From the IMG/VR virus record IMGVR_UViG_3300038428_000220: a stretch of 64,000 bases of DNA. The stretch is one strand, 5' to 3'. This document shows positions 9,249-63,767 of this stretch, in pieces; the first letter of the stretch is position 1, and each line of letters starts with the position of its first letter. The notes below the pieces were generated by a model. It saw nothing but the letters and a program-made list of their open reading frames with translations, did no database searches and was not told the DNA's origin. This DNA comes from an uncultured virus (IMG/VR IMGVR_UViG_3300038428_000220) (lineage: Duplodnaviria; Heunggongvirae; Uroviricota; Caudoviricetes). The translations under genes were made by a program, and so were the position numbers.

Positions 9249-9338
9249 CTATGATCCATGCTTATCCGGTTGACACCCACAGCCACCTGTGCTAGATAAT
9301 GCGGGTAGGCCGATCCCCGGCCTTTAGGAGAGCTAATC

Positions 9339-9647
9339 ATGGATATGTCCCCCGCCTGCACAGCGCCTCGGCAGCCGCCGATCAGCGAAAAGGACCGGGA
9401 ACACCCGCTTTTCGCGCTCTATTCGCAGCATCGTTCGGCTTGTAATCGTCTGCTGGTAGAGGCATCCGCCTTTCGGGATTGGTTGTTTCAATATGAACGC
9501 GACTTGGTTAACAGCAAAGCCGCCTCTGACCCGCGCTATCCCGCGTTTCTCGACTGGATGCAGGGAAGCCAAGCCGGTGCGCGCAAATGCCCGGCTGGCG
9601 TGTTTCCGCATAACTTTTACTTTTGGATCGAAGGGGGCCGCTGGTAA
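9339..9647 (+). CDS. IS passenger hypothetical protein
   Basis: AGGAG RBS; lies inside the TIRs. Confidence 0.7.
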   Translation: MDMSPACTAPRQPPISEKDREHPLFALYSQHRSACNRLLVEASAFRDWLFQYERDLVNSKAASDPRYPAFLDWMQGSQAGARKCPAGVFPHNFYFWIEGGRW

Positions 9648-9662
9648 CAGCGGGGTTGCACC

Positions 9663-9860
9663 ATGAAAACCTTCACTGTCCAATTCGATAACGAACCGTG
9701 GCGCAATCGTTCCTTCAAGGTGCGCGGCATCTGCAAATGCGATGTGCTTAATCCTTGTTGGGACGGCCGTAAGGACGACATACCGGGCCAGCATTGGGGT
9801 GGCGGCCCTGCTTGCGAACCCTGCACGAAAGCGGCGTTTGCCGCCAAGGCGGCTGCCTAA
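9663..9860 (+). CDS. IS passenger small Cys-rich protein
   Basis: CKC, C, CEPC; stop abuts the transposase ATG. Confidence 0.6.
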   Translation: MKTFTVQFDNEPWRNRSFKVRGICKCDVLNPCWDGRKDDIPGQHWGGGPACEPCTKAAFAAKAAA

Positions 9861-10898
9861 ATGAACGCAATCCATGACATACACGCGCGGAGCGATTTGG
9901 CTTTCCCCAAGTCGCTCCCGCAATTCCAAAAGCTCTTTCCTGATGACGCGGCTTGCGCGGCCTATCTGGAAAAGGCCCGCTGGCACGGCGGCTTTCAGTG
10001 CCCGCATTGCAAAGCCCGTGGCGAGCCGTTCCGCTTCGCCGCGCGGCCCGGCGTGCTGCGCTGTAAGGCTTGCCGCAAAGACGTAGCCCTTACGACCGGC
10101 ACGGTCATGGCGCGCACCCATACGCCGCTCACGACTTGGTTTTGGGGCGCTTATCTCGTTTCCAGCATGACGCCGGGAATGTCCGCCGTTCAATTCCAGC
10201 GCCAGCTTGGCCTTACCCGCTACGAGACGGCCTTTCAAATCCTGCATAAGCTCCGCGCTGGCATGGTGCGGCCCGACCGTGACGCCATCGGCGGCAATCT
10301 GGCACGCGGCGACCATGTTGAAGTTGATGAAACGTGGATCGGCGGGGCCACCCGTGGCGAAGGTAAAGGCGTTCACGATCAAACGCTGGTCATTGGCGCG
10401 GTAGAGGTTCGCCAGCGACCGCCCAAGAAGGGTGACAAGCCCGAACGGCGCGGGGGCCGCTATGCGGGCCGTCTGCGCTTGGACGTGATGCCCGACCGTA
10501 CCGCTAAGTCTCTGTGTGGCTTCGTTGAGCAAGCCGTGGCTCCGGGCGCGATTGTCATCACCGATGCCGCCCCGAGCTACGCTGGCCTCGAAAAACTCGG
10601 CTACGCCCATTTGCCGGTCGTTGAGGCCAACGACCCGAAGGTGGCCGAAGAATACCTGCCGATTATTCACTTGGCTTTCAGCAACCTGAAAAGCTGGCTT
10701 CGCGGCACGCACCACGGTGTCAGCCCGCAACACCTGCAAGCCTACCTCAACGAATTTGCCTTCCGCTTCAATCGCCGCTTCTACCCGTTCAACGCCTTCC
10801 GCTCGCTCTTGGGCATCGGCGCAAACGGCGAAAGCCCGACCTATGACAGCCTCTATAGCGGCAAGTGGAAACACCCTACGGTTAGCGATCATGGGTGA
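9861..10898 (+). CDS. IS1595-family DDE transposase
   Basis: Zn ribbon CPHC/CKAC, HTH, VEVDETWIGG, ITD, H..FSNLK, HLQAYLNEFAFRFNRR. Confidence 0.95.
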   Translation: MNAIHDIHARSDLAFPKSLPQFQKLFPDDAACAAYLEKARWHGGFQCPHCKARGEPFRFAARPGVLRCKACRKDVALTTGTVMARTHTPLTTWFWGAYLVSSMTPGMSAVQFQRQLGLTRYETAFQILHKLRAGMVRPDRDAIGGNLARGDHVEVDETWIGGATRGEGKGVHDQTLVIGAVEVRQRPPKKGDKPERRGGRYAGRLRLDVMPDRTAKSLCGFVEQAVAPGAIVITDAAPSYAGLEKLGYAHLPVVEANDPKVAEEYLPIIHLAFSNLKSWLRGTHHGVSPQHLQAYLNEFAFRFNRRFYPFNAFRSLLGIGANGESPTYDSLYSGKWKHPTVSDHG

Positions 10899-10916
10899 GA
10901 ACCGGATAGGCATGCT

Positions 10917-11093
10917 ATGATCGATCGCCAATATAACAAAATCGTTATCGAGTGCGATTCGTGCGGCGAAGTCTTTAATGGCGAGCCCGGCGAGGAATTC
11001 GCCGTGCTGTGGGCACGCGCCAAGACCGACGGCTGGCGCACGCGCAAGATCGGCGACGAATGGGTGCATGGCTGCCACGGATGCGGAGTCTGA
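10917..11093 (+). CDS. small zinc-ribbon protein (not in ORF track)
   Basis: MIDRQYNKIVIECDSCGE...GWRTRKIGDEWVHGCHGCGV; its ATG lies within the IS target duplication. Confidence 0.7.
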   Translation: MIDRQYNKIVIECDSCGEVFNGEPGEEFAVLWARAKTDGWRTRKIGDEWVHGCHGCGV

Positions 11094-11095
11094 CA

Positions 11096-11779
11096 ATGCA
11101 AAAGCTGCTTTTTACAGATGTCGAGACAAATGGCCTGACAGATTTCAGCAAGCCAGCTGACGCGCCTGGACAGCCACGCGTCGCGCACCTGTGCATGATC
11201 GCACTGCACGGTCGCGCGCAATGGTGCAAGGCCAACGTCTATATCCGGCCCGACGGCTGGACCATGACGCCTGAGACAACCGCAATCAACGGGCTGACCG
11301 ACGACAAGCTGGACGAGTATGGGGTCCCGGTGCGCGACGCGCTGGACTCATACGCGTACTTTGTCGACCGCGGTTATGTCGTTGTCGCCTTCAATGCGTC
11401 ATACGACCTCAAGGTGCTGCGCGGCGAACTGCGGCGCGCGAAAATGGACGACCGCTACGGCAAGACCAGCAGCGTATGCACCATGCGGGCGTCGACCGGC
11501 GTGTGCAAAATCCCCAAAGCCAACGGCCGCGGCTATAAGTTCCCCAAGTTGGCCGAGGCTATGCGGCATTTCGGGCTTGAGCATGTCGGCGCCCACACCG
11601 CGCTGGGCGACGCGCAGGCCTGCCTGGACCTGTTCCTTAAGCTGCGCAGCCTGGGCGTCGACCTGACGCCAACGCAGCCCAGCGACAAGCCCAACACGGA
11701 AGGGCGCCCTGCAGCGCCGGACGCACCGCGCGACCAGCTGCAGGCACTGCGTGAGGGCCGCCCAGCCGTTACCGATTAA
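11096..11779 (+). CDS. DEDDh 3'-5' exonuclease (DnaQ-like)
   Basis: DVETNG, AFNASYD, AHTALGDA. Confidence 0.9.
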   Translation: MQKLLFTDVETNGLTDFSKPADAPGQPRVAHLCMIALHGRAQWCKANVYIRPDGWTMTPETTAINGLTDDKLDEYGVPVRDALDSYAYFVDRGYVVVAFNASYDLKVLRGELRRAKMDDRYGKTSSVCTMRASTGVCKIPKANGRGYKFPKLAEAMRHFGLEHVGAHTALGDAQACLDLFLKLRSLGVDLTPTQPSDKPNTEGRPAAPDAPRDQLQALREGRPAVTD

Positions 11780-11800
11780 CCCCCAAGGAGTCATACCCCC

Positions 11801-13702
11801 ATGACTGACAAAACCCGACACGACGTGCTGCAGCTGACGCCCGTCAGCCAGTTGCGATTTGGGCACGACCCCAAAGCCGGCCCGGCTATCAATGCGCGCG
11901 TAACCGGCCGGCTGGACGGTATCGAGGCCATAGCTGGCACGATTGCGCATTACATCGCGCGCCTGCCAGGGCACGCAGGCCTGGTGCTGCCACTAGCCTG
12001 CGTGGCGTCGCCTGACAGCGATTTGCTCTACGTGGTCGACGGCAATCGCCGCCTGGCCGCGCTGCAGCTTATGGTCAAGCAGCAGACGATACCCGACACG
12101 CACCTGGTGCCCTGCATGGTGCACGGCGTCATTGGCGACACCGCGCTGGAAATGTCGCTGGTCGCCAACAGCGCCAGCCCGCTGCACCCGGTCGACCGGT
12201 TTGAGGCCTTGTCGCGGCATATCAACCAGCTGGTCGCCGCCGGCGCGACCGTCGAGGACGCCTATGCGGACGTCGGCGCGCTGTTCACCATGACGCCGCG
12301 CCAGGTCAAGCAGGCCATGGCGCTGGGCAACAGCCTGTCGCCGATAATCCGCGACGCCTGGCGGGCTGGCGATATCAATGCCGGCACCGCCGAGTCGTTC
12401 ACGCTGATACCCAAGCCGGCCGAGCAGGAGCGGGTGTTTAAGAAGCTGAAAAAGTCCCACAGCCTGCATGCGCATTATGTGCAGGACGAGGCCGGCAGCG
12501 CCGACGACAAGATTGCCGCGCTGGTGACGTTTGTCGGCGCCGACGCGTACCGCGCCGCCGGCGGCCAGATTACCGAGGATCTGTTCCACGAGGCCCATGT
12601 GGTCAGCGACGCCGACCTGGCCAAGCGGCTGGCGGACGAAAAGCTGGACGCGCGCTGCAAGTGGCTGGTCGAGCAAGACGGCTGGGCCTGGGCGCGCGTG
12701 CCGGTCAATCCCAGCGAGCGGTACCACCTGACGCAGCAGGAGGCCAAATCGAAGCCGACGCCGGACGAGCGCAAGCAGCTGGACGACATGGCGCGGCAAA
12801 TCGACGCCATGGAGGAAGCCGACGACGACAACCAGGATAAGTATGACGCACTGCGCCGTGACCACGACGCGCTGCAGCAGACCGTCGACCTGCGCGCCTA
12901 CACGCCCGACCTGCGCGCCAAGCTGGGCTGTCTGGTGTGGATTGAGGACGGGCGCTTGGAAATGGCGTTCGGGTTCCGCGCGCCCAAGGCCCAGCCCGCC
13001 GGCACACAGACGCCGGCCGGCCCGACCGCGGCGCCCAAGGCCAAAAAGACCAAGGCGGCCAAGTTTGACCCCAGTGGTGGCGTCAGCAACGCGCTGGCCG
13101 AGCGCATGGCCAAGCAGTTGACCAAAGCCGCCGACGAGGCACTCGCCGGCAATGGCACGCTGGGCCTGCAGGTGCTGGTTGCGCAGCTGGCCTATGGCAG
13201 CGACGAAAGCCCGGTCAAGATCACGCACCGCGGCCTGCGCAGCATGGACGTGCTGGACCGCAACGAGGTCGGGTTTGACGACGCGCTGCGCAGCATGCGC
13301 CGGCTGTCGACGGCCGACCTGCTGACGCGGGTGGCCGGCTGGGTCGGCATTGCGCTGCGCTTCGACGCCCGCCAGGCCGACGACCTGCCGTACTGTGGCG
13401 ACAATGACGGTTACGACGCCGCGCTGCTGGACGCGATACCGCCCAAGGCGCTCAACATGCAGCTGCGCAAGGCCTGGGACGCCAAGGATTATTTCGACAG
13501 CGTCAGCAAGCAGCTGTGCCTGCAGGCGGTCAGCGAGGCGGTCAGCCCCGAGGCCGCGCGGTCGGTGCAGGGCCAGCCCAAGGGCGACGTCGCCAAGTTC
13601 GCGCTGGCCAACGTGGTCAAGACCAAGTGGCTGCCGCCGCAAATGCGCGCGGCCGGCTATGACGGGCCCAAGGCGAAGCAGGTAGCCAAGCGCAAAAAAT
13701 AA
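11801..13702 (+). CDS. ParB/Spo0J-like N-domain protein
   Basis: YVVDGNRRLAAL, SLVAN...LHPVDRFEA, HTH, Y.AAGG...DLF. Confidence 0.85.
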   Translation: MTDKTRHDVLQLTPVSQLRFGHDPKAGPAINARVTGRLDGIEAIAGTIAHYIARLPGHAGLVLPLACVASPDSDLLYVVDGNRRLAALQLMVKQQTIPDTHLVPCMVHGVIGDTALEMSLVANSASPLHPVDRFEALSRHINQLVAAGATVEDAYADVGALFTMTPRQVKQAMALGNSLSPIIRDAWRAGDINAGTAESFTLIPKPAEQERVFKKLKKSHSLHAHYVQDEAGSADDKIAALVTFVGADAYRAAGGQITEDLFHEAHVVSDADLAKRLADEKLDARCKWLVEQDGWAWARVPVNPSERYHLTQQEAKSKPTPDERKQLDDMARQIDAMEEADDDNQDKYDALRRDHDALQQTVDLRAYTPDLRAKLGCLVWIEDGRLEMAFGFRAPKAQPAGTQTPAGPTAAPKAKKTKAAKFDPSGGVSNALAERMAKQLTKAADEALAGNGTLGLQVLVAQLAYGSDESPVKITHRGLRSMDVLDRNEVGFDDALRSMRRLSTADLLTRVAGWVGIALRFDARQADDLPYCGDNDGYDAALLDAIPPKALNMQLRKAWDAKDYFDSVSKQLCLQAVSEAVSPEAARSVQGQPKGDVAKFALANVVKTKWLPPQMRAAGYDGPKAKQVAKRKK

Positions 13703-13811
13703 TGGCCAAGCGCTTACCAAAACCGCCGACCGCGCGCGCTATGCTGCCGACCGCCGCTATCGCGACAGTCGTAAGAACCGTGCTTATCCGGTTTAGACAC
13801 ACGGACACAAA

Positions 13812-13907
13812 ATGCAGACCGTGACCTATAAATACCGAGTGAAAGACCGCAGCGCACGGAAGGCGCTGGCGCGGCACGCTATGGCCTGCAATCAAGGGGA
13901 TGTTTGA
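13812..13907 (+). pseudogene. 5' fragment of a tnpB-like gene
   Basis: MQTVTYKYRVKDRSARKALARHAMACNQ aligns by eye with MILTFKYRIKDATVGKYLDRHSRSVNF of the TnpB at 54111. Confidence 0.7.
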
Positions 13908-14446
13908 TGAGACGAAGGGCATCGACTTTCATAGGCCATTTATGCCGTCACGGTCACTTTGGCGAGCGTTATAGCAGCAGTGGTGAATGTGTCGAATGCG
14001 TTCGCCTGCGCTCGTTAGCGCCCTCAGCCATAGAGAGGCGAAAGCGGCATGATCACGACCACCCGGATAGATGTGTTGCACGAGTCAGGCGCTATCAAGC
14101 AACCACAAAAGGGCGTGCGAGTAGTCTATGGCATAGCGCGCACAGCCGGAGTGAAACAGTCACCATTACGGTTGAATGGATTGAGAAACGATTAGCGCGT
14201 GGGGTCTGCGAAGTAAGTGGCTTGCCTTTTAACTTTTCAAGATCAGTCAAAATGGGTCCTTATTCACCCAGCCTTGATCGGATTGATACAACGGCGGGGT
14301 ATACACCTCAAAACTGCCGTATCATCCTGTGGGCATTAAACGCTGCCTTTAGTCACTGGGGCGCGGATACCTTTGAGCCCATTGCCACGGCATGGCTCGC
14401 CCGCAGTGCTGCGGGTCCAGCTGTGGAAAGCCGGGTAGCCGCATGA
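13904..14446 (+). CDS. HNH-like (His-Me finger) endonuclease
   Basis: CRHGH...CVEC, CEVSG, PSLDRIDTTAGYTPQNCRII...N; more AT-rich than flanks. Confidence 0.72.
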   Translation: MMRRRASTFIGHLCRHGHFGERYSSSGECVECVRLRSLAPSAIERRKRHDHDHPDRCVARVRRYQATTKGRASSLWHSAHSRSETVTITVEWIEKRLARGVCEVSGLPFNFSRSVKMGPYSPSLDRIDTTAGYTPQNCRIILWALNAAFSHWGADTFEPIATAWLARSAAGPAVESRVAA

Positions 14447-14540
14447 CACAAGATTTTGCCTGTGTGTGCTAACCGGATAAGCACGCTACAGTACAACGGC
14501 GTAAACGACTCCACCCCACGACCCCCAACGAGGTGACACC

Positions 14541-14951
14541 ATGCGACGATTGCTCCTGACGACTGCTGCGCTGATTTTTGCCACCGCGGCCGCGGCCACC
14601 GCGGCCGAGGTCGATATGTCGACCGTGCTGCTCGACGGCAGCGGCAAGCCCATGCAGGAGTGCGCACAGTGGGTGACAAAAAACAACCAGCCGGATTGCG
14701 ACCAGCTTGTCGACCTGACGCTGGGCCTGCTGGCCTACGGCTCGCTCAATAAGGCCGTGCCGAACGAGGGCGCGGCCGACCAGACCAAGCGCGGCAACCT
14801 GGCGCTCAAGGTCTACCACGCCGGCAAGGTCACACTAGACCACGACGAGTCCGAACTGATACGCGCCGCGATTGCCAAGCAGGGATACCCGCCCGTCACC
14901 GTCGCGCGGGCGCTGGCTGTGCTTGACGGCACGCCGCCGCCAAAAAAGTAG
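14541..14951 (+). CDS. exported hypothetical protein
   Basis: Signal peptide, GAGG RBS. Confidence 0.7.
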   Translation: MRRLLLTTAALIFATAAAATAAEVDMSTVLLDGSGKPMQECAQWVTKNNQPDCDQLVDLTLGLLAYGSLNKAVPNEGAADQTKRGNLALKVYHAGKVTLDHDESELIRAAIAKQGYPPVTVARALAVLDGTPPPKK

Positions 14952-14962
14952 ACCGCAGGCCC

Positions 14963-15172
14963 ATGGTCCGATTCGCCCGCCCGGTACTGCTGCCAGACCC
15001 GCGAGTCGGACCTGCCCGCGCGGCATACGACGACGACCTGATTACACGCGTCATGGCGCGATGGGACGCCGGCCTGGACACGCAGACGATTGCGCTTGAG
15101 ATTTTTGAGAGCGAGGCTGCGGTGTGCGTGGCGCTGCGAGTCGGCCGCGAGCGTCGACGTCAGGGACAATAA
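14963..15172 (+). CDS. small HTH-like protein
   Basis: WDAGLDTQTIA...SEAAVC. Confidence 0.5.
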   Translation: MVRFARPVLLPDPRVGPARAAYDDDLITRVMARWDAGLDTQTIALEIFESEAAVCVALRVGRERRRQGQ

Positions 15173-15199
15173 AAAGCCGCGCCGACATGGGCGCGGCGT
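15171..15199 (-). terminator. intrinsic terminator at the convergence of the two arms
   Basis: GCCGCGCC/GGCGCGGC stem followed by T5 on the minus strand. Confidence 0.7.
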
Positions 15200-15235
15200 T
15201 GTCGCTCCTTGAAAGGGCCGCCAGCCAGCGCGCGC

Positions 15236-16021
15236 TTACTTGCTGACCGCCAGGTCCTGCCACTGACCGTCACGGCCGGATAAATACTCAATCGCCTCGT
15301 CGACGGTCACGCTGCGGTTTGTCTGCAGCAGCTTGCGGTGCGGAAATCTTGCCAAAACGTCGCGGAACGCCCCGACGTCGAAGTCAGGTTTTTGGATTCG
15401 CCAAATCTCGAACACGGCCGCAAACACAGCGTCCCAGGTCGCCGGCTCGATCAGCGTGGCAATCAGCTCGTCGTACCCCTGCGCGTCCGACTTATAGAGG
15501 ATCGGCCAGCCTGGTCGCGCCCACCGGCGGCTTTCGACGTCGGCGCGCAAGGTAACGACAGGTTCGGTACTAAATGGGTCGCCAGCCATGGCCGAGCGCA
15601 GCAACGAGTAATTGCCGCAGTTCTCGTGGTCAAGGTACAGTTTGAAAACTCCGCTATCGCGGGCCAGCGCAAAACCAAATTGCGACACCCGGCCGGCCCA
15701 GGGCGCAAGGTTGTGGGCCATGTTCTCATAATTCGTCGCGTCCGGCTCGTACGCATACACGCGCGCGATATTCGACAAGGCAATCAGCGCCTGCCTGGAA
15801 AACAGCCCGACATTGGCGCCCACGTCGACCAGGACGAAAGGCGGCCGGCCGCCCGCGACGTCGCGCAGCCACCGCAGCTGCGCGCTGTCGGGCCGGTGCG
15901 CGTTAAGCCTGGCGGCGCCGCCAAAGCGGTCGTTGCTGATCTTGATCGGGTGGTCGGCCCAATAGACGGTCGTGCCCGGCGGGGGATAGACCGTTACGGT
16001 ATCGCCTCGAATGCCAGCCAT
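15236..16021 (-). CDS. FkbM-family methyltransferase (start uncertain)
   Basis: VDVGANVGLFS, AYEPD, KSDAQGYD. Confidence 0.85.
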   Translation of the reverse strand: MAGIRGDTVTVYPPPGTTVYWADHPIKISNDRFGGAARLNAHRPDSAQLRWLRDVAGGRPPFVLVDVGANVGLFSRQALIALSNIARVYAYEPDATNYENMAHNLAPWAGRVSQFGFALARDSGVFKLYLDHENCGNYSLLRSAMAGDPFSTEPVVTLRADVESRRWARPGWPILYKSDAQGYDELIATLIEPATWDAVFAAVFEIWRIQKPDFDVGAFRDVLARFPHRKLLQTNRSVTVDEAIEYLSGRDGQWQDLAVSK

Positions 16022-18987: not shown

Positions 18988-19002
18988 GCGGGCGTCTTGT
19001 GC

Positions 19003-19039
19003 AAAAAAGTGCCGCCGGAGCCTACTAAGAACCGGCGGC
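19003..19039 (-). terminator. intrinsic terminator after the lysis region
   Basis: GCCGCCGG/CCGGCGGC stem, then ACTTTTTT on the minus strand. Confidence 0.7.
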
Positions 19040-54090: not shown

Positions 54091-54110
54091 AGACCAAGTA
54101 GATAGTCTGC

Positions 54111-55187: not shown

Positions 55188-55200
55188 GGCGGGGAAGACG

Positions 55201-55643: not shown

Positions 55644-55646
55644 TGG

Positions 55647-56421: not shown

Positions 56422-58133
56422 GCGTTCACCGTCGTGCGCGGCCCTATGTTCATGCCGCCTACCTGCGCGGGACCGGCCGCCGGGCTGGCCGACTCGGGCT
56501 GGTCGGCCGGCGTGCCGGGCTCCACCGGCACGTCGACTGACGTCGGCTGCGGCGCCATTGGCGTGGCCTCGTCGGGCTCCGTCGGGCTGTCGTCGACCGC
56601 GTCCTGTTCTTCGCCGGCGTCCTCCATGTCGATCATGGACAAATCCAGCACCTGCGCGATGTAGGCCTTGGCTTCCTCGAACGTAATAAGCTGTTCTTCC
56701 GGCTTTGGCTCGGTCGCCGGCACGGCGTCGACATGCGCGCCCTGCGCGCTGGCCGGCCTGCTGCCTGGTTGCGCTGGCGCGGTCTTTTTCATCGGATCCA
56801 ACATGATTTGGAACGCTTGGGCGAGCGAGAACACCTCGTCGGGCGTCGGCTGGAACATGCGCGGCCACTGCAGCGTGAAGCCGCCGGCGTCCTTGTCGAT
56901 CTTGGACGCAATCGCTATCTTTTTGATCAGCGGCAGCGCACCATGCTCGCCGTACTGGCTGCGCAGGTCGCCCACCATGTCGTCGCTGTCCTGGTCGAGG
57001 TACTCCATGGCGCGCCCAGACAGCGGGGCTTTCATTTTGTCGGGGTCTTTACGGCTGGCCGCGATCTGCTCGAGCGCCATGTTGCGCAGGTGGTCGATCA
57101 GCTTGAGCGCCGCCTCGGTGCCGGTGCCGGACATTTCCAGCAGCTTGGCGTCGCCGACGCCGACCATGCTGCCGTCCTCGTCCTTGTAACCGGCTTCCAT
57201 TTCCAGGTGCGTCATGGGCCCGCGCGTCACGGCGCCGTTCATCACCTTGCCGATCGTCACCAACTGCGGCGCGCTGTTGTAGCGCGTGCCGCGACCGATT
57301 TGGCTCAACGTGTAGTCGAGCTCGACGCTGTTGGGGATTGCGTCTTCGAACGTGCAGCAGCCGTCGGGCGCCAGGCCGCCGCCCAGATTGACAAACCAAT
57401 GCGCGCACACAAAGCCCAGGTCGTGCTTGTATTCCTCGCCGGCCCACGGCTCTAACTTTTTGTTGGCCGCGCCCTCGCCGACAAAGCCGTGCACGGGATT
57501 CCATTCGACCTTCTTGACCGGCTGATACGTCACCTCGCCGGTCGGCAGCCAGTCGCGGATATACCAATACTCTTGGCCCTTCTCGACGCCAGGCGCCCCC
57601 ATGGCTTCAAGCGCTGCCCCGCTGGTCGTGTAGGCAACGCGCAGCTGCGCCAGCTCCCCCATGTCGTCAAAGCTGGGTTGGCAGTATTTGGCGCGCCAGC
57701 ATTGCAACGCCACCTTGGGGTTTTTGCCGCCTGTGGTTTCGACGCGAAACGTGACGGCCACGGCGCCGACGCTGCCCAGCAGCACGGCTTCTGCCATGCG
57801 TTCAAAAAACTTGCCCTTGCGCAGCAGCGCCGCCATGGACGCAATCTTGGCCTTGTCCTTGTGGCGCACCTTGGGCGCGTGCCGGCCGGTGAACAGCTTG
57901 CGGGTGCACCAGCGCGCGACCATGCGCGGCAGCCGGTACTGCGCCGACGGTCGGCGCTCGGTCAGCGGTATCAGCTCCTGCGTGCCTGGCTTGACCTCGT
58001 CGTAAAACGCATAGTTCAAATGATTGTAAAAGGTGCCGTCGAGCAGGCGGTCGCGCAGGTCAAGGCAGCGATAGCGCGAGTCCTCGCTGGCCCAGTCGGG
58101 GTATCGGATCGCCTGCGCGATTTTGCGGAACAT
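56418..58133 (-). CDS. portal protein
   Basis: Position after terminase; DYTLSQIGRGTRY, AKLLEMSG, SGRAME; acidic tail. Confidence 0.82.
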   Translation of the reverse strand: MFRKIAQAIRYPDWASEDSRYRCLDLRDRLLDGTFYNHLNYAFYDEVKPGTQELIPLTERRPSAQYRLPRMVARWCTRKLFTGRHAPKVRHKDKAKIASMAALLRKGKFFERMAEAVLLGSVGAVAVTFRVETTGGKNPKVALQCWRAKYCQPSFDDMGELAQLRVAYTTSGAALEAMGAPGVEKGQEYWYIRDWLPTGEVTYQPVKKVEWNPVHGFVGEGAANKKLEPWAGEEYKHDLGFVCAHWFVNLGGGLAPDGCCTFEDAIPNSVELDYTLSQIGRGTRYNSAPQLVTIGKVMNGAVTRGPMTHLEMEAGYKDEDGSMVGVGDAKLLEMSGTGTEAALKLIDHLRNMALEQIAASRKDPDKMKAPLSGRAMEYLDQDSDDMVGDLRSQYGEHGALPLIKKIAIASKIDKDAGGFTLQWPRMFQPTPDEVFSLAQAFQIMLDPMKKTAPAQPGSRPASAQGAHVDAVPATEPKPEEQLITFEEAKAYIAQVLDLSMIDMEDAGEEQDAVDDSPTEPDEATPMAPQPTSVDVPVEPGTPADQPESASPAAGPAQVGGMNIGPRTTVNA

Positions 58134-58439
58134 TCAGGCCCCCTGCGGCGGTGGTGACGCGTCGACCTCGTCGCGCATGTTGACCGACGTGGCGAAACGA
58201 TTCTGCAGATAGCTGATTCCGGCCATCAGCAGGTGCACTGTGCCGCTGTCGTCTTCCCAGCCGTCGCACAGCCAGCCGCCCGGCTTGACGAATGTGAACG
58301 CGATTGCGCGTATTTGACCGGCCTTAGCGCGCTCAAGCAGCTGCTCCAGCTTAGCGATCACATTGGCCTGCGGCTGCAGGTCGACAGCAACCTGCGGGTT
58401 GGCGACGCCGGGGAAGGTGCGCACGTTGTCGGTCGTCAT
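58134..58439 (-). CDS. hypothetical protein
   Basis: LEQLLERAKAGQIRAIA; ATGA coupling. Confidence 0.6.
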   Translation of the reverse strand: MTTDNVRTFPGVANPQVAVDLQPQANVIAKLEQLLERAKAGQIRAIAFTFVKPGGWLCDGWEDDSGTVHLLMAGISYLQNRFATSVNMRDEVDASPPPQGA

Positions 58440-58651
58440 GCCGCGGCCTCGTCCACCCAGGCAAAGTCGATCGCGCCGCCCGGCAGTCGCACCATATAGC
58501 AATTCGCTGGATATGAACGACGTACGCTGACGACGGCCGCCACGCAGGGGTCCTTGCCTTCCTGCACGCGCTTGTGCAGGAGTGCCAGCACCGCGGCATC
58601 AATCACAGCGTCGCTGTGGCGCATCGTTTGTTTGGTCACAATTATGGTCAT
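58436..58651 (-). CDS. hypothetical protein
   Basis: ATGA-coupled. Confidence 0.55.
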   Translation of the reverse strand: MTIIVTKQTMRHSDAVIDAAVLALLHKRVQEGKDPCVAAVVSVRRSYPANCYMVRLPGGAIDFAWVDEAAA

Positions 58652-58875
58652 GCCGCGACCTCGTCGGCCGGCGTGTCCAGCGTAAAGCGCCGCTCGTTGA
58701 CCGTGTCCTGCTTGCCGGTATCCTCGTAGCGCACCAGCCAGCTGCCGGCGCCGTATTGCGGCTGCGGCAGCTGCACCGTCGCCAGGCGGTGACCGCCGGC
58801 GGGTCGCCAGCCAGCGTCGCACGCGACCTCGACGACGTCGCCAGCTTGGTATGGTCGCGGCTGTCGCATGGACAC
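58648..58875 (-). CDS. small SH3/Tudor-like protein
   Basis: YQAGDVVEV...W...ATV...WLVRYEDTG. Confidence 0.5.
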   Translation of the reverse strand: MSMRQPRPYQAGDVVEVACDAGWRPAGGHRLATVQLPQPQYGAGSWLVRYEDTGKQDTVNERRFTLDTPADEVAA

Positions 58876-58939
58876 CGTTGGAATCAGCGCAGCGGTCGGC
58901 TGCGCGTTTATGAGCCAGCGCGCGCGTCGGCGTCAAGCG

Positions 58940-59209
58940 TCAGCCGGTGATCCCCATGGCGCGCTCGATCGCCTTGCGTTTGATCCACCGCCACAGCCGG
59001 TCGGCGGCCACGCCGTTGTCGTTTAACCGATATCGCCGCCACCGCTTGGCCTGCCGACCGTACACCCGCCGGTGCATCAGGTCGACCAGGCGCCAATGGT
59101 CGCCGCACAGCCATTCGTCGAATTCGGTGCGCGCGGTCGTGTGCCGGCAAAACGGCACGCAACAGTGCAGGCGGCCGGCGCGATTCCGCTTTTTGCCGTC
59201 CTGGGTCAA
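58940..59209 (-). CDS. hypothetical Cys/His protein
   Basis: CCVPFCRHT...EWLCGDHW. Confidence 0.6.
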   Translation of the reverse strand: MTQDGKKRNRAGRLHCCVPFCRHTTARTEFDEWLCGDHWRLVDLMHRRVYGRQAKRWRRYRLNDNGVAADRLWRWIKRKAIERAMGITG

Positions 59210-59356
59210 GTAGATTCCCCCTGCTTGCGCCAGCCAGGGTAAACGGTTGCTTAACTAACGCACCTGCTGCCTGGCGGCGTCGATAGGCGGTCGGCCGACC
59301 TTGCGCGGCTTAGGAGACAATGTCACTTGGACGTCTGTCATTTGTCACCTGGATTG

Positions 59357-62032
59357 TCACCTTGCGAAGATCGGCAGCACCTGGGCGCCGCCGGACTGCG
59401 GCTGCGTGCGCTTTTTCTTCTGCAGCCTGGCGTAGCCGCCCGTCATGGCGTCGGTCTGGTCCTTGAACTTGCTGCCGGGGAAGTTTGTCACTTCCTCCAA
59501 AAACGTGTCGTTCCACGGCCCGACGACAATCTCGACGTTACCATTTTCGGCCTGCGCCGCCATGGGCTCCGCGCGGTCGATCTTGCTGCCCGTCTCAATC
59601 AGCTTATGCGCGTCAAAGCCGTCCAGCATGCTGACCATGTCTCGCGCCACCGTATTGTGCACGACGATATCGCGCACTAGAAACGACGCCTGTCCGCGTA
59701 CCGTCAGGCAGCGGCACGGTCGGACGCCAGCCGGCGTCACGGACATGACCTGATCCGGCAAATAGTCCTCGTCGAAACGGCGATAGATCGACGCGTTGGC
59801 CAGCGACGCCAGTCGGGCGGCCTTGAACGAGTGGTGCACCGGAATTCGCTTCAAAAACCGGCCATAGGCGTCGTCCTGCTGGCGCATGCGCAACAGCCAG
59901 CTACGGTGGCGTTTCTCCAGATATTTGCCATTCTTGGTCTTTAGCGTCGAATTGATGCCAAGCCGCAGCAGCAGGTGCTGCACATCCTCAAGCAACGCCT
60001 TGCTGACGCTGTAGAATATGACCTCGTGCGCGTCTTTCGATACGAATCCGTCACAGGCGAAATAGGCCCCAAGGAATTCAGCCACCAACGGGCTGGGGGC
60101 GCCAAACACCCATGCTGGCACACGTTTGGTATAGGCATTGTGCCCGGCCAGTCCGGTATCACGCAGCCATGACTGCAAGCCCGCTGCGTTGATCTCGCCG
60201 CGCCGGTAACCATTGCTGGTGCGGCCACCAACGGATTGCACGCAATGCCGGAAGTCCAGCAGCTCAACATGGTCGTGACAACAGAACGACGATTTGCTGC
60301 TTTGCACCTTGCGTTCCGGTCGTCGGATGCTTGTCACCGATCCATCGCCAATAAAATAGCCAGCAAGCCGGAACTCTTCCGCCGAACGATCAGCGATCGC
60401 CGCTATGCGCGGAGTACTGCGGAGCGCGACAACGCTGCCTGGGCGCAGGGCGCCGGCAGCCACCCAATCGTCTGGCGTGAGAAACGGGTGGTCAAGCGCC
60501 GCCACGACTTCGCGCCCGGATCCTGTCTTAATGCACACCGTCGGCAAGTCGCCCTGTTGAAACACAGCGTCGACCATCCCAGGCACACCATCCTTGCCTA
60601 TGACGGTGTCACCAACAATGATTTCCTTAAGCGGCACCTGTTGGCCATCGCCGCGCAAGATCAATTCTTCCTCCCAGATTGGCTTGCCGGCGCTGCCAGG
60701 GTCTTGCGGCACCTGCACCTCGTAGCTACCGCCCAGCTGGGCAATGCGTATCTGGTCGGCCAGCGCCGTCGCCTTGACCAGCCGGCGCACCAGGGGCGCC
60801 TGCTCGCGACAGCGCTGCACGTCGGCAATGCAGTATTGCGACAATGTCGGGTGCTTGCCCAGCAGCACGCCGGCGGTGTAGGGCGGGTCGGCCGTATAAG
60901 TCGCCTCGGTGTCCGCCAGGTCCCAGTGCCGCACCCAGCGATAGCCCAGCGGCATGGCTGGCCTGGGCTTGAACCAGGCGCGCTTGAACATGCCGCCTTC
61001 GCGCGGCACCGGAGTCTGTTGGTGTTGCCCAGAAACTGCGTATGCGGTCATCTCGCGTTCAAGTGCATCCACGGTAGCTAACGGGAATCGTTCAGGAAAT
61101 AGCAATTCCCCCTCTTGCCGGCGCGGGTCAGTGAATATCGGCGTCGTGCAGTGCCGGCCTTGCTCGTACCGCATGGGCAGCACCAGGGCTATGTGCTGCA
61201 CCCCGATTTGCTCCCACACCCCGCTGGGGTCATCCTGATGCACCCGCTGCATAATCAGCGCGATGGCCGACGCCACCGGGTCATTAAGACGAGTTGGCAC
61301 CGATTCCCGCATGATGAACTTAGCCTGCTCGCGATCGGCGTCCGACTTGGACTGCGGCACCGACAGCGGGTCGTCGATCGTCAGCACGTCGCCGCGGCCG
61401 CCGGTCAGCCCCTCGAACGCCACGCCCTCGCGTGTGCCCTTGCTCGAATTCTCAAACGACGTTTCGGCCACGCGTGTCAGCTTCACATGCGGCCAAAGCG
61501 TCTGATACCAGTCCGAAAGGATCAAATCGCGGGTCTTGCGCGTGTCGCGCTTGACGTAATCCGCCGAATAGCTGGTCGACAGGAAACGCCGGTGTGCCAG
61601 ATTGCACGGTCCCCATTGCCAGGCGTTCCATAAAACACTGACAATCAATGATTTCCCGACGCCTGGCGGCACATTGAAGCGCACCTTGTTCGGCAGCCCC
61701 ATGGCCAGGAAACGACCCCAGGTCAGAGCCTCAAGGTGATCGCATATCGCACGCACCACCCAGCCCTCGACAAACTGCGTCCTGGGCTCAAGGACGTGCC
61801 AGGCCTCGCGCACAAAGCCGATTAAGGTCTGGCAGCGCGCGCGGATAGCATCCGCGTTCGCCTGCGTGTCTGCCCGCTCGCGCTCAGTGGCTCGTTGGTG
61901 CTTTGCCTGCTGGATCGCCTGCAGCAGTTGGGTCGGCGAGATTCGCGACAACACTGAGAGCGCCAAGGACTCGCTCGAATTGCTCAATATCGCCCTCCGG
62001 TAGTTTGCCCAAGATGGCCGCCAGTGCCGCAA
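59357..62032 (-). CDS. terL: terminase large subunit with intein (true start probably near 61955)
   Basis: NVPPGVGKS, TGGRGDVLTIDDP, IMQRVHQDD, WDLA, QDPGSAGK, KDQTDA. Confidence 0.93.
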   Translation of the reverse strand: MRHWRPSWANYRRAILSNSSESLALSVLSRISPTQLLQAIQQAKHQRATERERADTQANADAIRARCQTLIGFVREAWHVLEPRTQFVEGWVVRAICDHLEALTWGRFLAMGLPNKVRFNVPPGVGKSLIVSVLWNAWQWGPCNLAHRRFLSTSYSADYVKRDTRKTRDLILSDWYQTLWPHVKLTRVAETSFENSSKGTREGVAFEGLTGGRGDVLTIDDPLSVPQSKSDADREQAKFIMRESVPTRLNDPVASAIALIMQRVHQDDPSGVWEQIGVQHIALVLPMRYEQGRHCTTPIFTDPRRQEGELLFPERFPLATVDALEREMTAYAVSGQHQQTPVPREGGMFKRAWFKPRPAMPLGYRWVRHWDLADTEATYTADPPYTAGVLLGKHPTLSQYCIADVQRCREQAPLVRRLVKATALADQIRIAQLGGSYEVQVPQDPGSAGKPIWEEELILRGDGQQVPLKEIIVGDTVIGKDGVPGMVDAVFQQGDLPTVCIKTGSGREVVAALDHPFLTPDDWVAAGALRPGSVVALRSTPRIAAIADRSAEEFRLAGYFIGDGSVTSIRRPERKVQSSKSSFCCHDHVELLDFRHCVQSVGGRTSNGYRRGEINAAGLQSWLRDTGLAGHNAYTKRVPAWVFGAPSPLVAEFLGAYFACDGFVSKDAHEVIFYSVSKALLEDVQHLLLRLGINSTLKTKNGKYLEKRHRSWLLRMRQQDDAYGRFLKRIPVHHSFKAARLASLANASIYRRFDEDYLPDQVMSVTPAGVRPCRCLTVRGQASFLVRDIVVHNTVARDMVSMLDGFDAHKLIETGSKIDRAEPMAAQAENGNVEIVVGPWNDTFLEEVTNFPGSKFKDQTDAMTGGYARLQKKKRTQPQSGGAQVLPIFAR
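59654..60682 (-). mobile_element. 343-aa intein with LAGLIDADG endonuclease, Pro at position 1
   Basis: GSAGK|PIWEEELILRGDG...DHPF...LAGYFIGDG...FLGAYFACDG...CRCLTV...VVHN|TVARD. Confidence 0.88.
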
Positions 62033-62390
62033 TGTCCAGCGGACTACCGTCCGGATTGGTGTGCGCCACGCCGGTCAGCCGGCGGTGGCAATACATCGCG
62101 GCATCGCGCGCGGCCATGCGGGCATACGATAGCTCATTCCTGACCAATTCGCGGTCCAGCGGCCGACCGCCTTCCCTGCCCTCGTCAGCCTTGGCGCGCG
62201 CCTGCTCGCGTCCGGCTTCGTCCATGTGGTATCTGGCGATCGACAGCAGCATGTCGGCCGGGCTGGCACCGGCATGCAACGTCTTTATTTCGGCCGCCAC
62301 CGCGCTGGCGCTGCTCGCAACGCCTGGAATGGCCAATTTATCGGCTTTTGGCTTCCGCCCGGCACCTGGTCGCCATCCACCTCGTGGCAT
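61884..62390 (-). CDS. terS: terminase small subunit
   Basis: MPRGGWRPGAGRKP, AARDAAMYCHRRL; directly upstream of terL. Confidence 0.75.
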   Translation of the reverse strand: MPRGGWRPGAGRKPKADKLAIPGVASSASAVAAEIKTLHAGASPADMLLSIARYHMDEAGREQARAKADEGREGGRPLDRELVRNELSYARMAARDAAMYCHRRLTGVAHTNPDGSPLDIAALAAILGKLPEGDIEQFERVLGALSVVANLADPTAAGDPAGKAPTSH

Positions 62391-62572
62391 GTTTTTGAAT
62401 TAGCCCTGCAATCAATCTGGAATCGGTCGGGGGCGATATTGAGCCCGTGCGGATCATAAGGCAGCTTTGCGCGCCAATGCAAATGGTGCTGCAATTAACG
62501 GGTTTGCACGTTGCGCTGGGTGGCGCGCGGAGCCATGTTTGATTTGATCGAGAATCAAAAGAGCCGCCGGCG

Positions 62573-62799
62573 ATGCTCGTTTACAAAATCACCAACATGC
62601 TGACCGGTGCCGAGTACGTCGGGCTGACGTGCCGCAGATTGCTGACAAGGTGGAGCGATCACAAGGCGAAGGCGCGTGCCGGAACAAAAACGCCGCTATA
62701 CAACGCAATGCGTAAATATGGTTTTGCTGCATTTTCGATCGAGGCAGTTGCGTCTGCCAAGTCCTACGATGCGCTAAAAGCCGCCGAGGTGGCGATCAT
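62573..62799 (+). pseudogene. GIY-YIG endonuclease interrupted by IS insertion
   Basis: LVYKITN..TG..YVGLT...RWSDH...LYNAMRKYG...E; IS left end begins at 62800. Confidence 0.82.
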
Positions 62800-63006
62800 C
62801 GTGACCTCGGGCGGAAACCTCGCCGTTCACGGCGGGGAGGAAGCCCGTTGAGCTTCCACGTATCGCTTGACCCTCTCAAGCGGAGCGCCACCGGCACTGG
62901 CGGCAAAGTAGGATGGCGACCAAAGAACACTGCGCCAATAGCGAGCAGCAATATCCCGGCGCTCAAGTCTGAGCAGTCGGGACGAGGTACCCTTGAGGGC
63001 ATTAAC
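62800..63006. mobile_element. truncated second IS200/IS605 copy (left end + 3' part of tnpA)
   Basis: Close but diverged copy of 53632-53838, also preceded by TCAT; cut off by the TIR at 63007. Confidence 0.9.
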
Positions 63007-63047
63007 CATGCTTATCCGGTTTAGACACACAGCCCTAGATGTAGTGG

Positions 63048-63674
63048 TCACGGGAATACCAGCGTTTTGCCATTCCATGCGCAGTCAGGAATGTTCAATT
63101 TGATGTAAGCCAAAATGTCGGCGTCCAGCGTGGCGCGCTTGGCCTTGTAGTCGGCGTACAGCGTGGCGCGCTTGGCCTCGTAGTCGGCGTACAGCGGGGC
63201 GTGCTTGGCCTTGTAGTCGGCGTACAGCGGGGCGTGCTTGGCCTTGTAGTCGGCGTCCAGCGTGGCGCGCTTGGCCTTGTAGTCGGCGTACAGCGTGGCG
63301 CGCTTGGCCTTGTAGTCGGCGTCCAGCGGGGCGTGCTTGGCCTCGTAGTCGGCGTCCAGCGTGGCGCGCTTGGCCTTGTAGTCGGCGTACAGCGTGGCGC
63401 GCTTGGCCTCGTAGTCGGCGTACAGCGTGGCGTGCTTGGCCATCGCCTCACAACCGCCCAGATAGATCATGTTGTGTAAGCGGATAGCCACTTCGTTCTT
63501 CGGCTTTTTACGCTTCACATAATCAATGCGTTCATTCACATCGTGTGACTCTTCGCACAACTGTTCATGGTGCAGAAAACCAAACCAGCCTTTCGTCGGG
63601 CCAGTGTAATTGTAGCGACCTGGAAACAATGTATTCTCGATCTTCTTGCGGCGCGGATGATTAACCATTTTCAA
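63048..63674 (-). CDS. 11-residue repeat (hendecad coiled-coil-like) cargo protein
   Basis: About 10 x (R/H)A(T/P)L(Y/D)ADY(K/E)AK; ends PDCAWNGKTLVFP. Confidence 0.8.
   Translation of the reverse strand: MKMVNHPRRKKIENTLFPGRYNYTGPTKGWFGFLHHEQLCEESHDVNERIDYVKRKKPKNEVAIRLHNMIYLGGCEAMAKHATLYADYEAKRATLYADYKAKRATLDADYEAKHAPLDADYKAKRATLYADYKAKRATLDADYKAKHAPLYADYKAKHAPLYADYEAKRATLYADYKAKRATLDADILAYIKLNIPDCAWNGKTLVFP
63118..63441. repeat. 33-bp tandem repeat array, about 10 units
   Basis: Unit like GTAGTCGGCGTACAGCGTGGCGCGCTTGGCCTT with a few binary variable sites. Confidence 0.92.
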
Positions 63675-63767
63675 GTCCTCTGCCCCTGAAATCCCCGAGG
63701 CGCGGGATCAACATCTAGTGGCTCTTAGCAGTTGTGTGCGTCAACCGGATAAGCATGCAAGAGACAG

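What the first reader, a model, noticed from the sequence alone, without database searches (positions are those of the whole stretch)
9249..63757. One IS1595-type TIR family delimits three different cargo cassettes in a single phage
Seen: the end motif C(A/G)TGC(T/C)TATCCGGTT...CAC occurs six times as three inward-facing pairs: 9257-10914 (transposase + two passengers, perfect 8-bp duplication), 13779-14485 (tnpB stub + HNH-like nuclease) and 63007-63757 (11-aa repeat protein). The two small ones (707 and 751 bp) have no transposase and unrelated cargo, and each has self-matched termini (CGTG/CACG vs CATG/CATG). Known: IS1595-family elements make ~8-bp duplications, can carry passengers, and the ISSod11 group has nnnGCnTATC ends. 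Inference: a phage gene-shuttling system in which one transposase mobilises single-gene cassettes in trans, i.e. a transposase-driven route to morons.
Basis: partly seen in the sequence, partly recalled or inferred. Interest (0 to 1): 0.82.

Follow-up and report, generated by a model that had tools for sequence, protein, structure and literature searches.

The report
Jumping-gene cassettes in a peat phage
A phage from peat carries one complete jumping gene and two transposase-less gene cassettes with the same ends, members of a large and apparently undescribed family that carries many unrelated accessory genes in uncultivated phage genomes.

Summary
TGCYTATCCGGTT occurs exactly six times, as three inward-facing pairs.

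- A (9257-10914) is an intact IS1595-family element. It has two passenger ORFs, a zinc-ribbon/DDE transposase and a perfect 8-bp duplication, CTATGATC.
- B (13779-14485) has no transposase. It holds a 28-codon tnpB remnant and an HNH/EndoVII-like gene.
- C (63007-63757) has no transposase and holds one 11-residue-repeat gene.

Public viral contigs add 48 TIR pairs. Of 51 pairs, 38 have perfect 8-bp duplications. The interiors of 46 non-autonomous elements fall into about 41 unrelated groups. Identified cargo includes Mom, DNA methylases and NADAR. One cassette sits at two sites with different duplications. A homologue of C sits in another phage with its own duplication. Transposition of transposase-less cassettes is therefore well supported for the family.

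It is not shown that A's transposase moves B and C:
- Neither B nor C has a duplication.
- Their subterminal sequence class differs from A's.
- C is present in all four near-identical relatives.
- The one allele lacking B ends outside the inverted repeats.

The closest known kind is the mobile insertion cassette (MIC231). This scan has met the family before on other DNA (e1-3686474, e1-3424895).

The parts
9249..9256 (.). Left copy of the 8-bp target duplication CTATGATC of element A
   Evidence: Read directly. It is identical to 10915-10922. It overlaps the start codon region of the downstream 58-aa ORF.
9257..10914 (+). Element A: autonomous IS1595-family element with passengers (transporter IS), 1658 bp
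   Evidence: TIR pair. Perfect duplication. The closest viral relative, L042/L292, has 81-82% transposase identity and a C5-methylase passenger in the same position.
9339..9647 (+). Passenger ORF 1 of A (102 aa)
   Evidence: ORF. No Pfam or PHROG match. No relative among held loci except the same phage.
9663..9860 (+). Passenger ORF 2 of A (65 aa, cysteine-rich)
   Evidence: ORF. No Pfam or PHROG match.
9861..10898 (+). IS1595-family transposase (345 aa)
   Evidence: PF12762 1.9e-36 and PF12760 2.5e-13. NF033547 at 191.5 bits. C47, C50, C68, C71, D156, D235 and E298 are invariant in alignment A1.
10915..10922 (.). Right copy of the target duplication CTATGATC
13701..14494 (.). 794-bp segment absent from one contig of a peat metagenome run: B plus 78 bp on the left and 9 bp on the right
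   Evidence: table 5. An X14 contig of 1068 bp (depth 4) joins 13700 to 14495 with 2 nt of microhomology. Its flanks are identical over 698 and 370 nt.
13779..14485 (+). Element B: transposase-less cassette, 707 bp, CGTG tips, no target duplication
   Evidence: GC is 0.54 and cargo GC3 is 0.49, against 0.83-0.87 in neighbouring genes.
13812..13895 (+). tnpB 5' remnant (28 codons, then stop codons)
   Evidence: 68% identity over 25 residues to the start of a 367-aa TnpB. That TnpB fills a 1156-bp cassette with the same TIRs and the duplication ATATCAGA (G002/L272).
13904..14446 (+). Cargo of B: HNH/endonuclease VII-like nuclease (180 aa)
   Evidence: phrog_3322 8.9e-23, phrog_1035 1e-13, phrog_3118 8.5e-07. 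No Pfam or NCBIfam match.
62827..63006 (-). C-terminal half of an IS200-type tnpA, cut off exactly at C's left tip
   Evidence: PF01797 7.1e-14, profile positions 67-121 of 121. NF033573 2.5e-12. No N-terminal half lies on the other side of C.
63007..63757 (-). Element C: transposase-less cassette, 751 bp, CATG tips, no target duplication
   Evidence: Its ends are the common cassette type. A homologous 686-bp cassette with the duplication AAGTCAAT sits in another phage (L341).
63048..63674 (-). Cargo of C: 208-aa protein with an 80-residue head and about ten 11-residue repeats
   Evidence: The near-identical phage contig L033/L331 has a copy shorter by 231 bp, which is 7 units of 33 bp.

Best explanation
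The window is part of a tailed phage from peat and wetland metagenomes. It carries three members of one lineage of IS1595-family transposons.

A is a complete element with inverted repeats, two passenger genes and an intact zinc-ribbon/DDE transposase. It inserted recently, and precisely, into the 2-nt junction between two phage genes.

B and C are mobile insertion cassettes. They have the same ends, no transposase and one accessory gene each.

In this lineage the roughly 15-bp outer repeat plus a subterminal CAC-type motif is what the transposase most likely recognises. On that inference, any DNA between two such ends can be moved by a family transposase made elsewhere: in the same phage, a co-infecting phage or the host. 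Insertion gives an 8-bp duplication. Cassettes most likely arise from passenger-carrying elements that lose the transposase gene.

B and C are old or rearranged copies. B is a chimera: the 5' end of a TnpB cassette joined to an HNH gene with a 3' end. C abuts a truncated IS200 tnpA. This would explain why neither has a duplication.

Shown: the anatomy, family membership, an intact transposase, and transposition of transposase-less relatives elsewhere. Inferred: action in trans, the origin of cassettes by loss of the transposase gene, and the rearrangement history of B and C.
For: Window:
- Six exact end motifs form three pairs.
- A has a perfect 8-bp duplication.
- A's transposase domains and catalytic residues are intact.

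Family:
- Of 51 non-redundant TIR pairs (48 from IMG/VR, 3 from the window), 38 have perfect 8-bp duplications, 2 have one mismatch and 11 have none.
- Of 46 non-autonomous elements, only 4 groups share interior DNA, leaving about 41 unrelated cargos.
- L012 and L109 are 98.5% identical cassettes at two sites, with duplications CTATATTT and AATGGATA.
- L341 is a C-type cassette (86-94% identical over aligned pieces) in another phage, with duplication AAGTCAAT.
- 53 viral loci encode transposases related to A's; 50 are 63-88% identical over the best segment and 3 are 35-66% matches. 41 have both ends, 25 of those have perfect duplications, and they carry 0 to 4 differing passengers.
- L306-L308 are one 1150-bp passenger-less element at three sites.
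- L302 joins a cassette-type 5' end to a transposase.
- Only 9 of 36 cassette-bearing viral records, and 6 of 17 that are at least 90% complete, encode a PF12762 transposase.
- TnpB-only cassettes with the same ends and a duplication exist.
- In passages read (PMC6199540), mobile insertion cassettes are defined as IS-related elements lacking a transposase, and trans-transposition of MIC231 by the IS231 transposase is reported as proven.
Against: - B and C have no duplication.
- A's ends are of the CCCA subterminal class; B's and C's are CACACA. The two ends of an element resemble each other more than shuffled pairs do: longest common substring 6.23 against 4.83 +/- 0.18, reached in 0 of 2000 shuffles. 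That test ignores relatedness between elements.
- None of the 41 autonomous elements with both ends has CACACA at both ends. The master element for the commonest cassette class is therefore unidentified.
- All four IMG/VR relatives of the C region are at least 99.8% identical and all hold C.
- No contig in four runs skips A.
- The allele lacking B ends 78 and 9 bp outside the tips.
- A homologue of C's cargo has no TIRs within 1.5 kb (L342).
- No experiment was possible.
Confidence: 0.8

Rival explanations
1. B and C did not transpose into this phage. They came in by recombination with other phages or cassettes, by homologous or illegitimate exchange, and are now immobile relics. A is simply a separate, recent insertion.
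For: - B and C have no duplications.
- B's interior is chimeric: a tnpB stub followed by an HNH gene.
- The allele lacking B removes 794 bp with 2 nt of microhomology, not the 707 bp between the tips.
- An X13 contig follows the window up to 13894, the end of the stub, then runs on unlike sequence for 194 nt (table 8).
- C abuts a truncated tnpA whose other half is missing.
- 11 of 51 family members lack duplications.
Against: - Both ends of B and C are intact over about 24 bp and match active relatives.
- C's homologue L341 has a clean duplication.
- Excision followed by resection and end joining would also give the 794-bp allele.
- Adjacent deletion by the transposase would also remove a duplication.
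Confidence: 0.4
2. Cargo is exchanged mainly by homologous recombination across the conserved ends of about 45 nt (5') and 41 nt (3'). Phage RecT/exonuclease systems would use these as short homology arms, so transposition only seeds sites and recombination swaps genes.
For: - The common cassette type has conserved ends. The cargo start is often the ATG at nt 43-44, and the stop lies 28 or 41 nt from the tip.
- The window encodes an exonuclease VIII-like protein and a neighbouring protein of phrog_3657 (function unknown; I read it as RecT-like from its position only) at 6728-9054.
Against: - I found no case of one site holding different cargos. L279 and L292 share an octamer, but their flanks differ.
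- No empty or swapped sites turned up among the held loci.
- Compact cargo can be explained by selection on genome size.
Confidence: 0.2
3. The presence or absence of B reflects homing by its own HNH endonuclease, a free-standing homing gene, rather than any transposase.
For: - B's cargo is an HNH/EndoVII-like nuclease.
- The 794-bp polymorphic segment lies in an intergenic region just after the ParB-like stop codon.
- The phage holds other selfish nuclease elements: a GIY-YIG ORF, and a terminase gene whose match is split by an insert.
Against: - The nuclease lies inside intact IS1595-type repeats next to a tnpB stub.
- No relatives of the nuclease were found in viral contigs for comparing contexts.
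- Only one contig, at depth 4, supports the allele.
Confidence: 0.12
4. The repeats are not transposon ends at all. They are chance matches or regulatory sites.
For: None beyond the short length of the exact core (13 nt).
Against: - 9 matches against 1.8 expected, and 0 of 100 shuffles reached 9.
- The pairs face inward.
- 38 of 51 pairs have exact 8-bp duplications.
- IS1595 transposases lie between such ends in 41 loci.
Confidence: 0.01

Closest known systems
Mobile insertion cassettes (MIC231 of IS231, Bacillus cereus group; Chen 1999 and De Palmenaer 2004, as summarised in passages of PMC6199540 read)
   Same: Two IS-type inverted repeats with no transposase. One or more unrelated passenger genes. 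Size from about 700 bp. A conserved region next to one repeat is shared with the parent IS. The elements depend on a transposase supplied in trans.
   Different: - The parent family is IS1595, not IS4/IS231.
- Many cassettes here are smaller (207-832 bp) and hold one tightly packed ORF.
- They sit in phage genomes, up to four per phage.
- Trans-mobilisation is untested here.
Passenger-carrying IS1595-family elements (transporter IS; Siguier, Gagnevin and Chandler 2009, seen only as a citation in PMC8101967; its content is recalled)
   Same: Element A has the family's zinc-ribbon plus DDE transposase, inverted repeats, an 8-bp duplication and passenger genes.
   Different: This clade is found mostly on metagenomic and viral contigs. 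Passengers differ between close relatives. The clade has spawned many transposase-less cassettes.
DDE-transposase-associated and solo TnpB elements with inverted terminal repeats (Altae-Tran et al. 2023, PMC10691335; passages read)
   Same: The TnpB-only cassette G002/L272 and B's tnpB stub fit the report of solo TnpBs between transposon ends that are mobilised in trans.
   Different: The main text of that paper does not name IS1595 (0 occurrences). In B the tnpB is reduced to 28 codons and a nuclease gene has taken its place.
Mycobacteriophage mobile elements MPME1/2
   Same: Very small transposable elements that spread among phage genomes.
   Different: As I recall, MPMEs are about 440 bp and encode their own small putative transposase. 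The elements here carry unrelated cargo and rely on a separate IS1595 transposase.
MITEs
   Same: Short non-autonomous derivatives with IS ends and target duplications. True non-coding ones (101-141 bp) with the same outer repeat occur in Terriglobia and Nitrospira genomes.
   Different: B, C and most phage copies are filled by an ORF, so they are cassettes rather than non-coding miniatures.

Membership tests
IS1595 family (element A) | Transposase with a DDE_Tnp_IS1595 catalytic domain | tested here: met
   PF12762 1.9e-36, profile positions 4-153 of 153. NF033547 at 191.5 bits against a cut-off of 75. D156, D235 and E298 are invariant.
IS1595 family (element A) | N-terminal zinc-finger domain (all groups except IS1016, per passages of PMC8101967) | tested here: met
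   PF12760 2.5e-13. C47, C50, C68 and C71 are invariant.
IS1595 family (element A) | Terminal inverted repeats and an 8-bp target duplication | tested here: met
   CATGCTTATCCGGTT and CATGCCTATCCGGTT at the tips, with CTATGATC on both sides.
   The tips read CATGCTTATC, which fits the recalled pattern. The pattern itself and the phylogenetic placement could not be checked, because no ISfinder copy was available.
Mobile insertion cassette (B and C) | Two inverted repeats of an IS with no transposase gene between them | tested here: met
   No transposase domain in B's or C's ORFs.
Mobile insertion cassette (B and C) | One or more passenger genes unrelated to transposition | tested here: met
   HNH/EndoVII-like nuclease in B. 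Repeat protein in C.
Mobile insertion cassette (B and C) | Target duplication as a mark of transposition | tested here: not met
   B: GTAAGAAC/CTACAGTA. C: GCATTAAC/CAAGAGAC. The feature is met by relatives: C's homologue L341 and 31 of the 44 non-autonomous elements (7 of that call's 38 perfect duplications belong to autonomous elements).
Mobile insertion cassette (B and C) | Mobilisation in trans by the parent transposase | not testable with these tools
   Needs a transposition assay. Indirect support: 11 of 17 near-complete cassette-bearing phage records lack the transposase.
MITE | Short and non-coding | tested here: not met
   B and C are 707 and 751 bp and are filled by ORFs of 180 and 208 aa.

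The most novel reading that the evidence does not exclude
These IS1595-derived cassettes are a phage-borne gene-cassette system comparable in role to integron cassettes. Standard ends of about 45 and 41 nt frame a single ORF, often supplying its start codon and abutting its stop. They allow transposase-driven insertion at gene junctions and perhaps cargo exchange by recombination. On this reading the system is a major route by which soil and peat phages gain and swap accessory genes, notably DNA-modification genes that would counter restriction.
Probability: 0.3. Interest if true: 0.85.

Novelty: new variant of a known kind. Interest (0 to 1): 0.66.

Why it matters
Phage genomes are generally thought to be poor in insertion sequences (recalled, not checked here). 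How they acquire single extra genes ('morons') between conserved genes is usually put down to illegitimate recombination.

Here a transposon lineage is prolific in phages:
- One phage lineage holds four cassettes and one complete element within 12 kb.
- One record has four transposase genes.
- Insertions sit at gene junctions.
- Identified cargo includes Mom, three kinds of DNA methylase, a PAPS-reductase-like protein, NADAR and TnpB. These suggest roles in evading host defence.

If the cassettes move in trans, this is a concrete and testable mechanism for gene flow between phages and hosts. Their ends would also give a simple sequence tag for finding new accessory genes in metagenomes.

Tried and rejected
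Searches for relatives and empty sites:
- Megablast of the three regions against cultured phages found no match. tblastn gave only distant hits.
- The ParB-like neighbour has no relatives in IMG/VR. JGI metagenomes gave three contigs of the same phage and one 34%-identical, non-syntenic relative.
- The C region has four IMG/VR relatives, all at least 99.8% identical and all with C.
- The flanks of all held elements were compared with all held loci. No empty site appeared; only C's repeat-length variant did.
- A 20-nt left flank of B had 0 hits in viral contigs.
- The 76-nt and 11-nt stretches beside B matched nothing meaningful in the window or the loci.

Other checks:
- B's cargo has no relatives in viral contigs.
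- G003, G043 and G044 proved to be one phage lineage with identical element arrays, so they show no polymorphism.
- Promoter idea: autonomous elements share TTGACA, 17 nt, then TGCTAGATAAT-like sequence at the 5' end. The sigma-70 scan called nothing there, so I do not claim a promoter.
- The genome-contig scan with the 14-mer gave 122 rows, mostly single hits in unrelated taxa that I take for chance. I count six distinct pairs, and their subterminal sequences differ from the phage type.
- I considered the 309-315-aa transposases next to some cassettes as masters. The one examined (L019) has different repeats, and the cassette is inserted in its right end.
- L279 and L292 looked like one shared site, but their flanks differ.
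- Bins without contig cover over B's cargo in X13, X14 and X16 are not evidence of absence.

Steps dropped:
- The target-site composition table was not computed.
- A search for full-length relatives of the 31-aa tnpB stub could not be run because the query was too short.

Literature: searches found no paper describing IS1595-type cassettes in phages. Subscription journals and supplements were not covered.


Full report
**Observation**

The motif TGCYTATCCGGTT has six exact matches in the window, arranged as three inward-facing pairs. With up to two mismatches there are nine matches against 1.8 expected, and none of 100 shuffles reached nine. The three imperfect matches lack the CRTG tip and the following CAC motif, so I set them aside as chance. 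The pairs bound A (9257-10914), B (13779-14485) and C (63007-63757). A is flanked by CTATGATC on both sides. B and C have no duplication; their flanks are GTAAGAAC/CTACAGTA and GCATTAAC/CAAGAGAC.

**The host genome**

The window is a tailed phage. PHROGs matches include tail sheath, baseplate wedge, major head protein, a large terminase whose match is split by an insert, exonuclease VIII and a ParB-like protein. The stretch 8800-15000 is held by 24 listed peat and wetland metagenome runs. No cultured phage is close.

**Element A**

- The 345-aa ORF matches DDE_Tnp_IS1595 (1.9e-36), Zn_ribbon_IS1595 (2.5e-13) and NF033547 (191.5 bits against a cut-off of 75).
- In an alignment with nine relatives, the four zinc-ribbon cysteines and D156, D235 and E298 are invariant.
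- Two small ORFs (102 and 65 aa) lie between the left end and the transposase. Neither matches any family.
- The insertion sits in the 2-nt gap between the stop of a 63-aa ORF and the start of a 58-aa ORF. The duplication recreates that start codon.

A therefore meets every feature of the IS1595 family that I could test. It is a passenger-carrying, apparently functional copy.

**Elements B and C**

B holds a 28-codon opening of a tnpB gene followed by stop codons. Over 25 residues this stub is 68% identical to the start of a 367-aa TnpB (NF040570, 220 bits). That TnpB fills a 1156-bp cassette in a viral contig with the same inverted repeats and the duplication ATATCAGA. After the stub comes a 180-aa ORF matching phage endonuclease, endonuclease VII and HNH families. 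Its GC3 is 0.49, against 0.83-0.87 in the neighbouring genes.

C holds one 208-aa ORF with an 80-residue head and about ten 11-residue repeats. C's left tip abuts the C-terminal half of an IS200-type tnpA (PF01797, 7.1e-14). The other half of that gene is not on the far side of C.

**The family outside the window**

From these I extracted 48 non-redundant inward pairs of 207-1983 bp.

Duplications and cargo:
- With the window's three, 38 of 51 pairs have perfect 8-bp duplications, 2 have one mismatch and 11 have none. One of the 11 (L028) has a direct repeat offset by a base or two.
- After adding L341 and the TnpB cassette, the interiors of 46 non-autonomous elements share DNA in only four groups, which leaves about 41 unrelated cargos.
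- Pfam and PHROGs name a minority. Among cassette cargos these are Mom-like proteins (2), D12 and N6/N4 DNA methylases, a PAPS-reductase-like protein, NADAR and a DUF1281_C protein. One autonomous element carries a C5 methylase as passenger. 27 of the 36 IMG/VR cargos tested have no PHROG match.

Evidence that cassettes move as units:
- L012 and L109 are 98.5% identical cassettes at different sites with different duplications.
- A homologue of C (L341, 686 bp, 86-94% identical over aligned pieces) sits in another phage with the duplication AAGTCAAT.

Conserved ends. The commonest cassette type has about 45 nt conserved at the cargo's 5' side and about 41 nt at its 3' side. The cargo start is often an ATG at nt 43-44, and the stop lies 28 or 41 nt from the tip. 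By my count, the longest ORF has the same orientation relative to these asymmetric ends in 16 of 18 such elements.

**Autonomous relatives**

- 53 viral loci encode relatives of A's transposase. 50 are 63-88% identical over the best segment; 3 are 35-66% matches.
- 41 loci have both ends, spanning 1150-2715 bp. 25 of these have perfect duplications by a fixed-offset call, and they carry 0 to 4 passengers that differ between close relatives.
- L306-L308 are one passenger-less 1150-bp element at three sites.
- L302 joins a cassette-type 5' end to a transposase, which links the two forms.
- The protein collection holds 5793 homologues at E <= 1e-20 among the 8000 candidates scored. The 120 best are 69-87% identical and nearly all metagenomic. 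A few come from MAGs named Methylocella, Terriglobales and Pseudomonadota.
- In four bacterial MAGs that hold elements with the same outer repeat (three shown as MAGs of Nitrospiraceae, Binataceae and Terriglobia; two Terriglobia in all), the transposase matches are only 31-54% identical, and the subterminal sequences of those elements differ.

**Is the transposase supplied in trans?**

Of 36 cassette-bearing viral records, 9 encode a PF12762 transposase. Among the 17 that are at least 90% complete, 6 do and 11 do not. So many cassettes sit in phages with no cognate enzyme. Some phages are heavily loaded: one record has four transposase genes, and one lineage has four cassettes and one complete element within 12 kb.

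**What weakens the claim for this window**

- B and C have no duplications.
- Nucleotides 16-31 of the two ends of an element resemble each other more than shuffled pairings do. The longest common substring is 6.23 against 4.83 +/- 0.18, reached in 0 of 2000 shuffles over 83 elements. The test ignores relatedness between elements. Even so, clear classes appear: CCCA, CATGCA, CATACA, CTCCCAA and CACACA.
- A is of the CCCA class. B, C and roughly 25 cassettes are CACACA. None of the 41 autonomous elements has CACACA at both ends. Whether A's enzyme accepts B's and C's ends is therefore open.
- All four IMG/VR relatives of the C region are the same phage and all contain C. They differ only in repeat number.
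- Contigs from four peat runs all show A, and none skips it.

One X14 contig (1068 bp, depth 4) joins 13700 to 14495. It removes B plus 78 bp on the left and 9 bp on the right, with 2 nt of microhomology and otherwise identical flanks. B is thus polymorphic in the population, but not at its tips. Possible explanations:
- excision followed by resection and end joining;
- an unrelated deletion;
- arrival of B within a larger segment;
- homing by its nuclease.

I cannot tell these apart. An X13 contig follows the window up to 13894, the end of the tnpB stub, and then diverges. This fits, but does not prove, the idea that B is a recombinant between a TnpB cassette at this site and an HNH-bearing cassette. 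Such an origin would also explain the missing duplication.

A homologue of C's cargo sits in another phage with no inverted repeats within 1.5 kb (L342). The cargo family therefore also exists as an ordinary phage gene.

**Comparison with what is known**

The elements fit the definition of mobile insertion cassettes: two IS-type repeats, no transposase, passenger genes, a conserved region next to one repeat, and trans-mobilisation (proven for MIC231). I took this from passages of PMC6199540. A fits the IS1595 family as described in passages of PMC8101967. TnpB between inverted repeats, mobilised in trans, is reported in passages of PMC10691335, whose main text does not name IS1595.

Nine literature searches found no paper describing IS1595-type cassettes in phages. 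Subscription journals and supplements were not covered.

Earlier agents of this scan reported the same kind of cassette family on other phage DNA (e1-3686474, e1-3424895, e1-6034508, e1-6197317). I did not compare their sequences with these.

**Verdict**

A, B and C belong to one IS1595-derived lineage of a complete element and transposase-less cassettes. That lineage is abundant in uncultivated phages and has moved many unrelated genes. The specific claim that A's transposase shuttles B and C in this phage remains unproven and faces some contrary evidence. In kind it is a variant of a known class. Its scale, its phage setting and its standardised single-gene format make it worth an experimental test.

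Noticed in passing
window 59357-62032 (-): The large terminase ORF is 891 aa. Its PHROG matches are split (residues 34-455 and 795-883), leaving an insert of about 340 residues that looks like an intein or homing-endonuclease insertion.
   Followed up: partly
window 62573-62851 (+): A 92-aa GIY-YIG ORF (PF01541, 1.9e-05) lies next to the truncated IS200 tnpA and C. Several selfish elements cluster upstream of the terminase genes.
   Followed up: partly
window 63095-63445; L331, L333, L334: The 33-bp repeat array in C's cargo varies by 7 units between phage contigs that are at least 99.8% identical. Two contigs break inside the array. A TIR-less homologue (L342) is 288 aa, with many more repeats.
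   Followed up: partly
L019 742-2993: A second kind of IS1595-type element: a 309-aa transposase followed by a NADAR-like passenger, with TIR AAGGGAATTATATAC. The 477-bp cassette is inserted at the inner edge of its right repeat.
   Followed up: partly
G003:C1:270-12429; G043; G044: One phage lineage carries four cassettes and one complete element within about 12 kb. The arrangement is identical in three records.
   Followed up: partly
L272 1253-2408 (G002): A 1156-bp cassette made almost entirely of a 367-aa TnpB gene, between the same inverted repeats, with the duplication ATATCAGA.
   Followed up: yes
window 13027-13894 in run X13: A 1062-bp contig matches the window up to the end of B's tnpB stub, then continues for 194 nt of unlike sequence. 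This may be an alternative content of the cassette at this site.
   Followed up: no
window 10737-10868 in run X13: A 2780-bp contig at depth 47, about ten times the phage's depth, matches the 3' part of A's transposase gene with 5 differences. A related element is much more abundant than this phage in the same peat sample.
   Followed up: no
window 13685-13712: GCCAAGCGC occurs at the end of the ParB-like gene and again 19 nt later, at the start of the 794-bp polymorphic segment. This may mark an old recombination junction.
   Followed up: no
L055 around 2490-2500: The left flank of this cassette is itself the inner part of another inverted repeat (AACCGGATA), so cassettes insert into one another's ends.
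   Followed up: no
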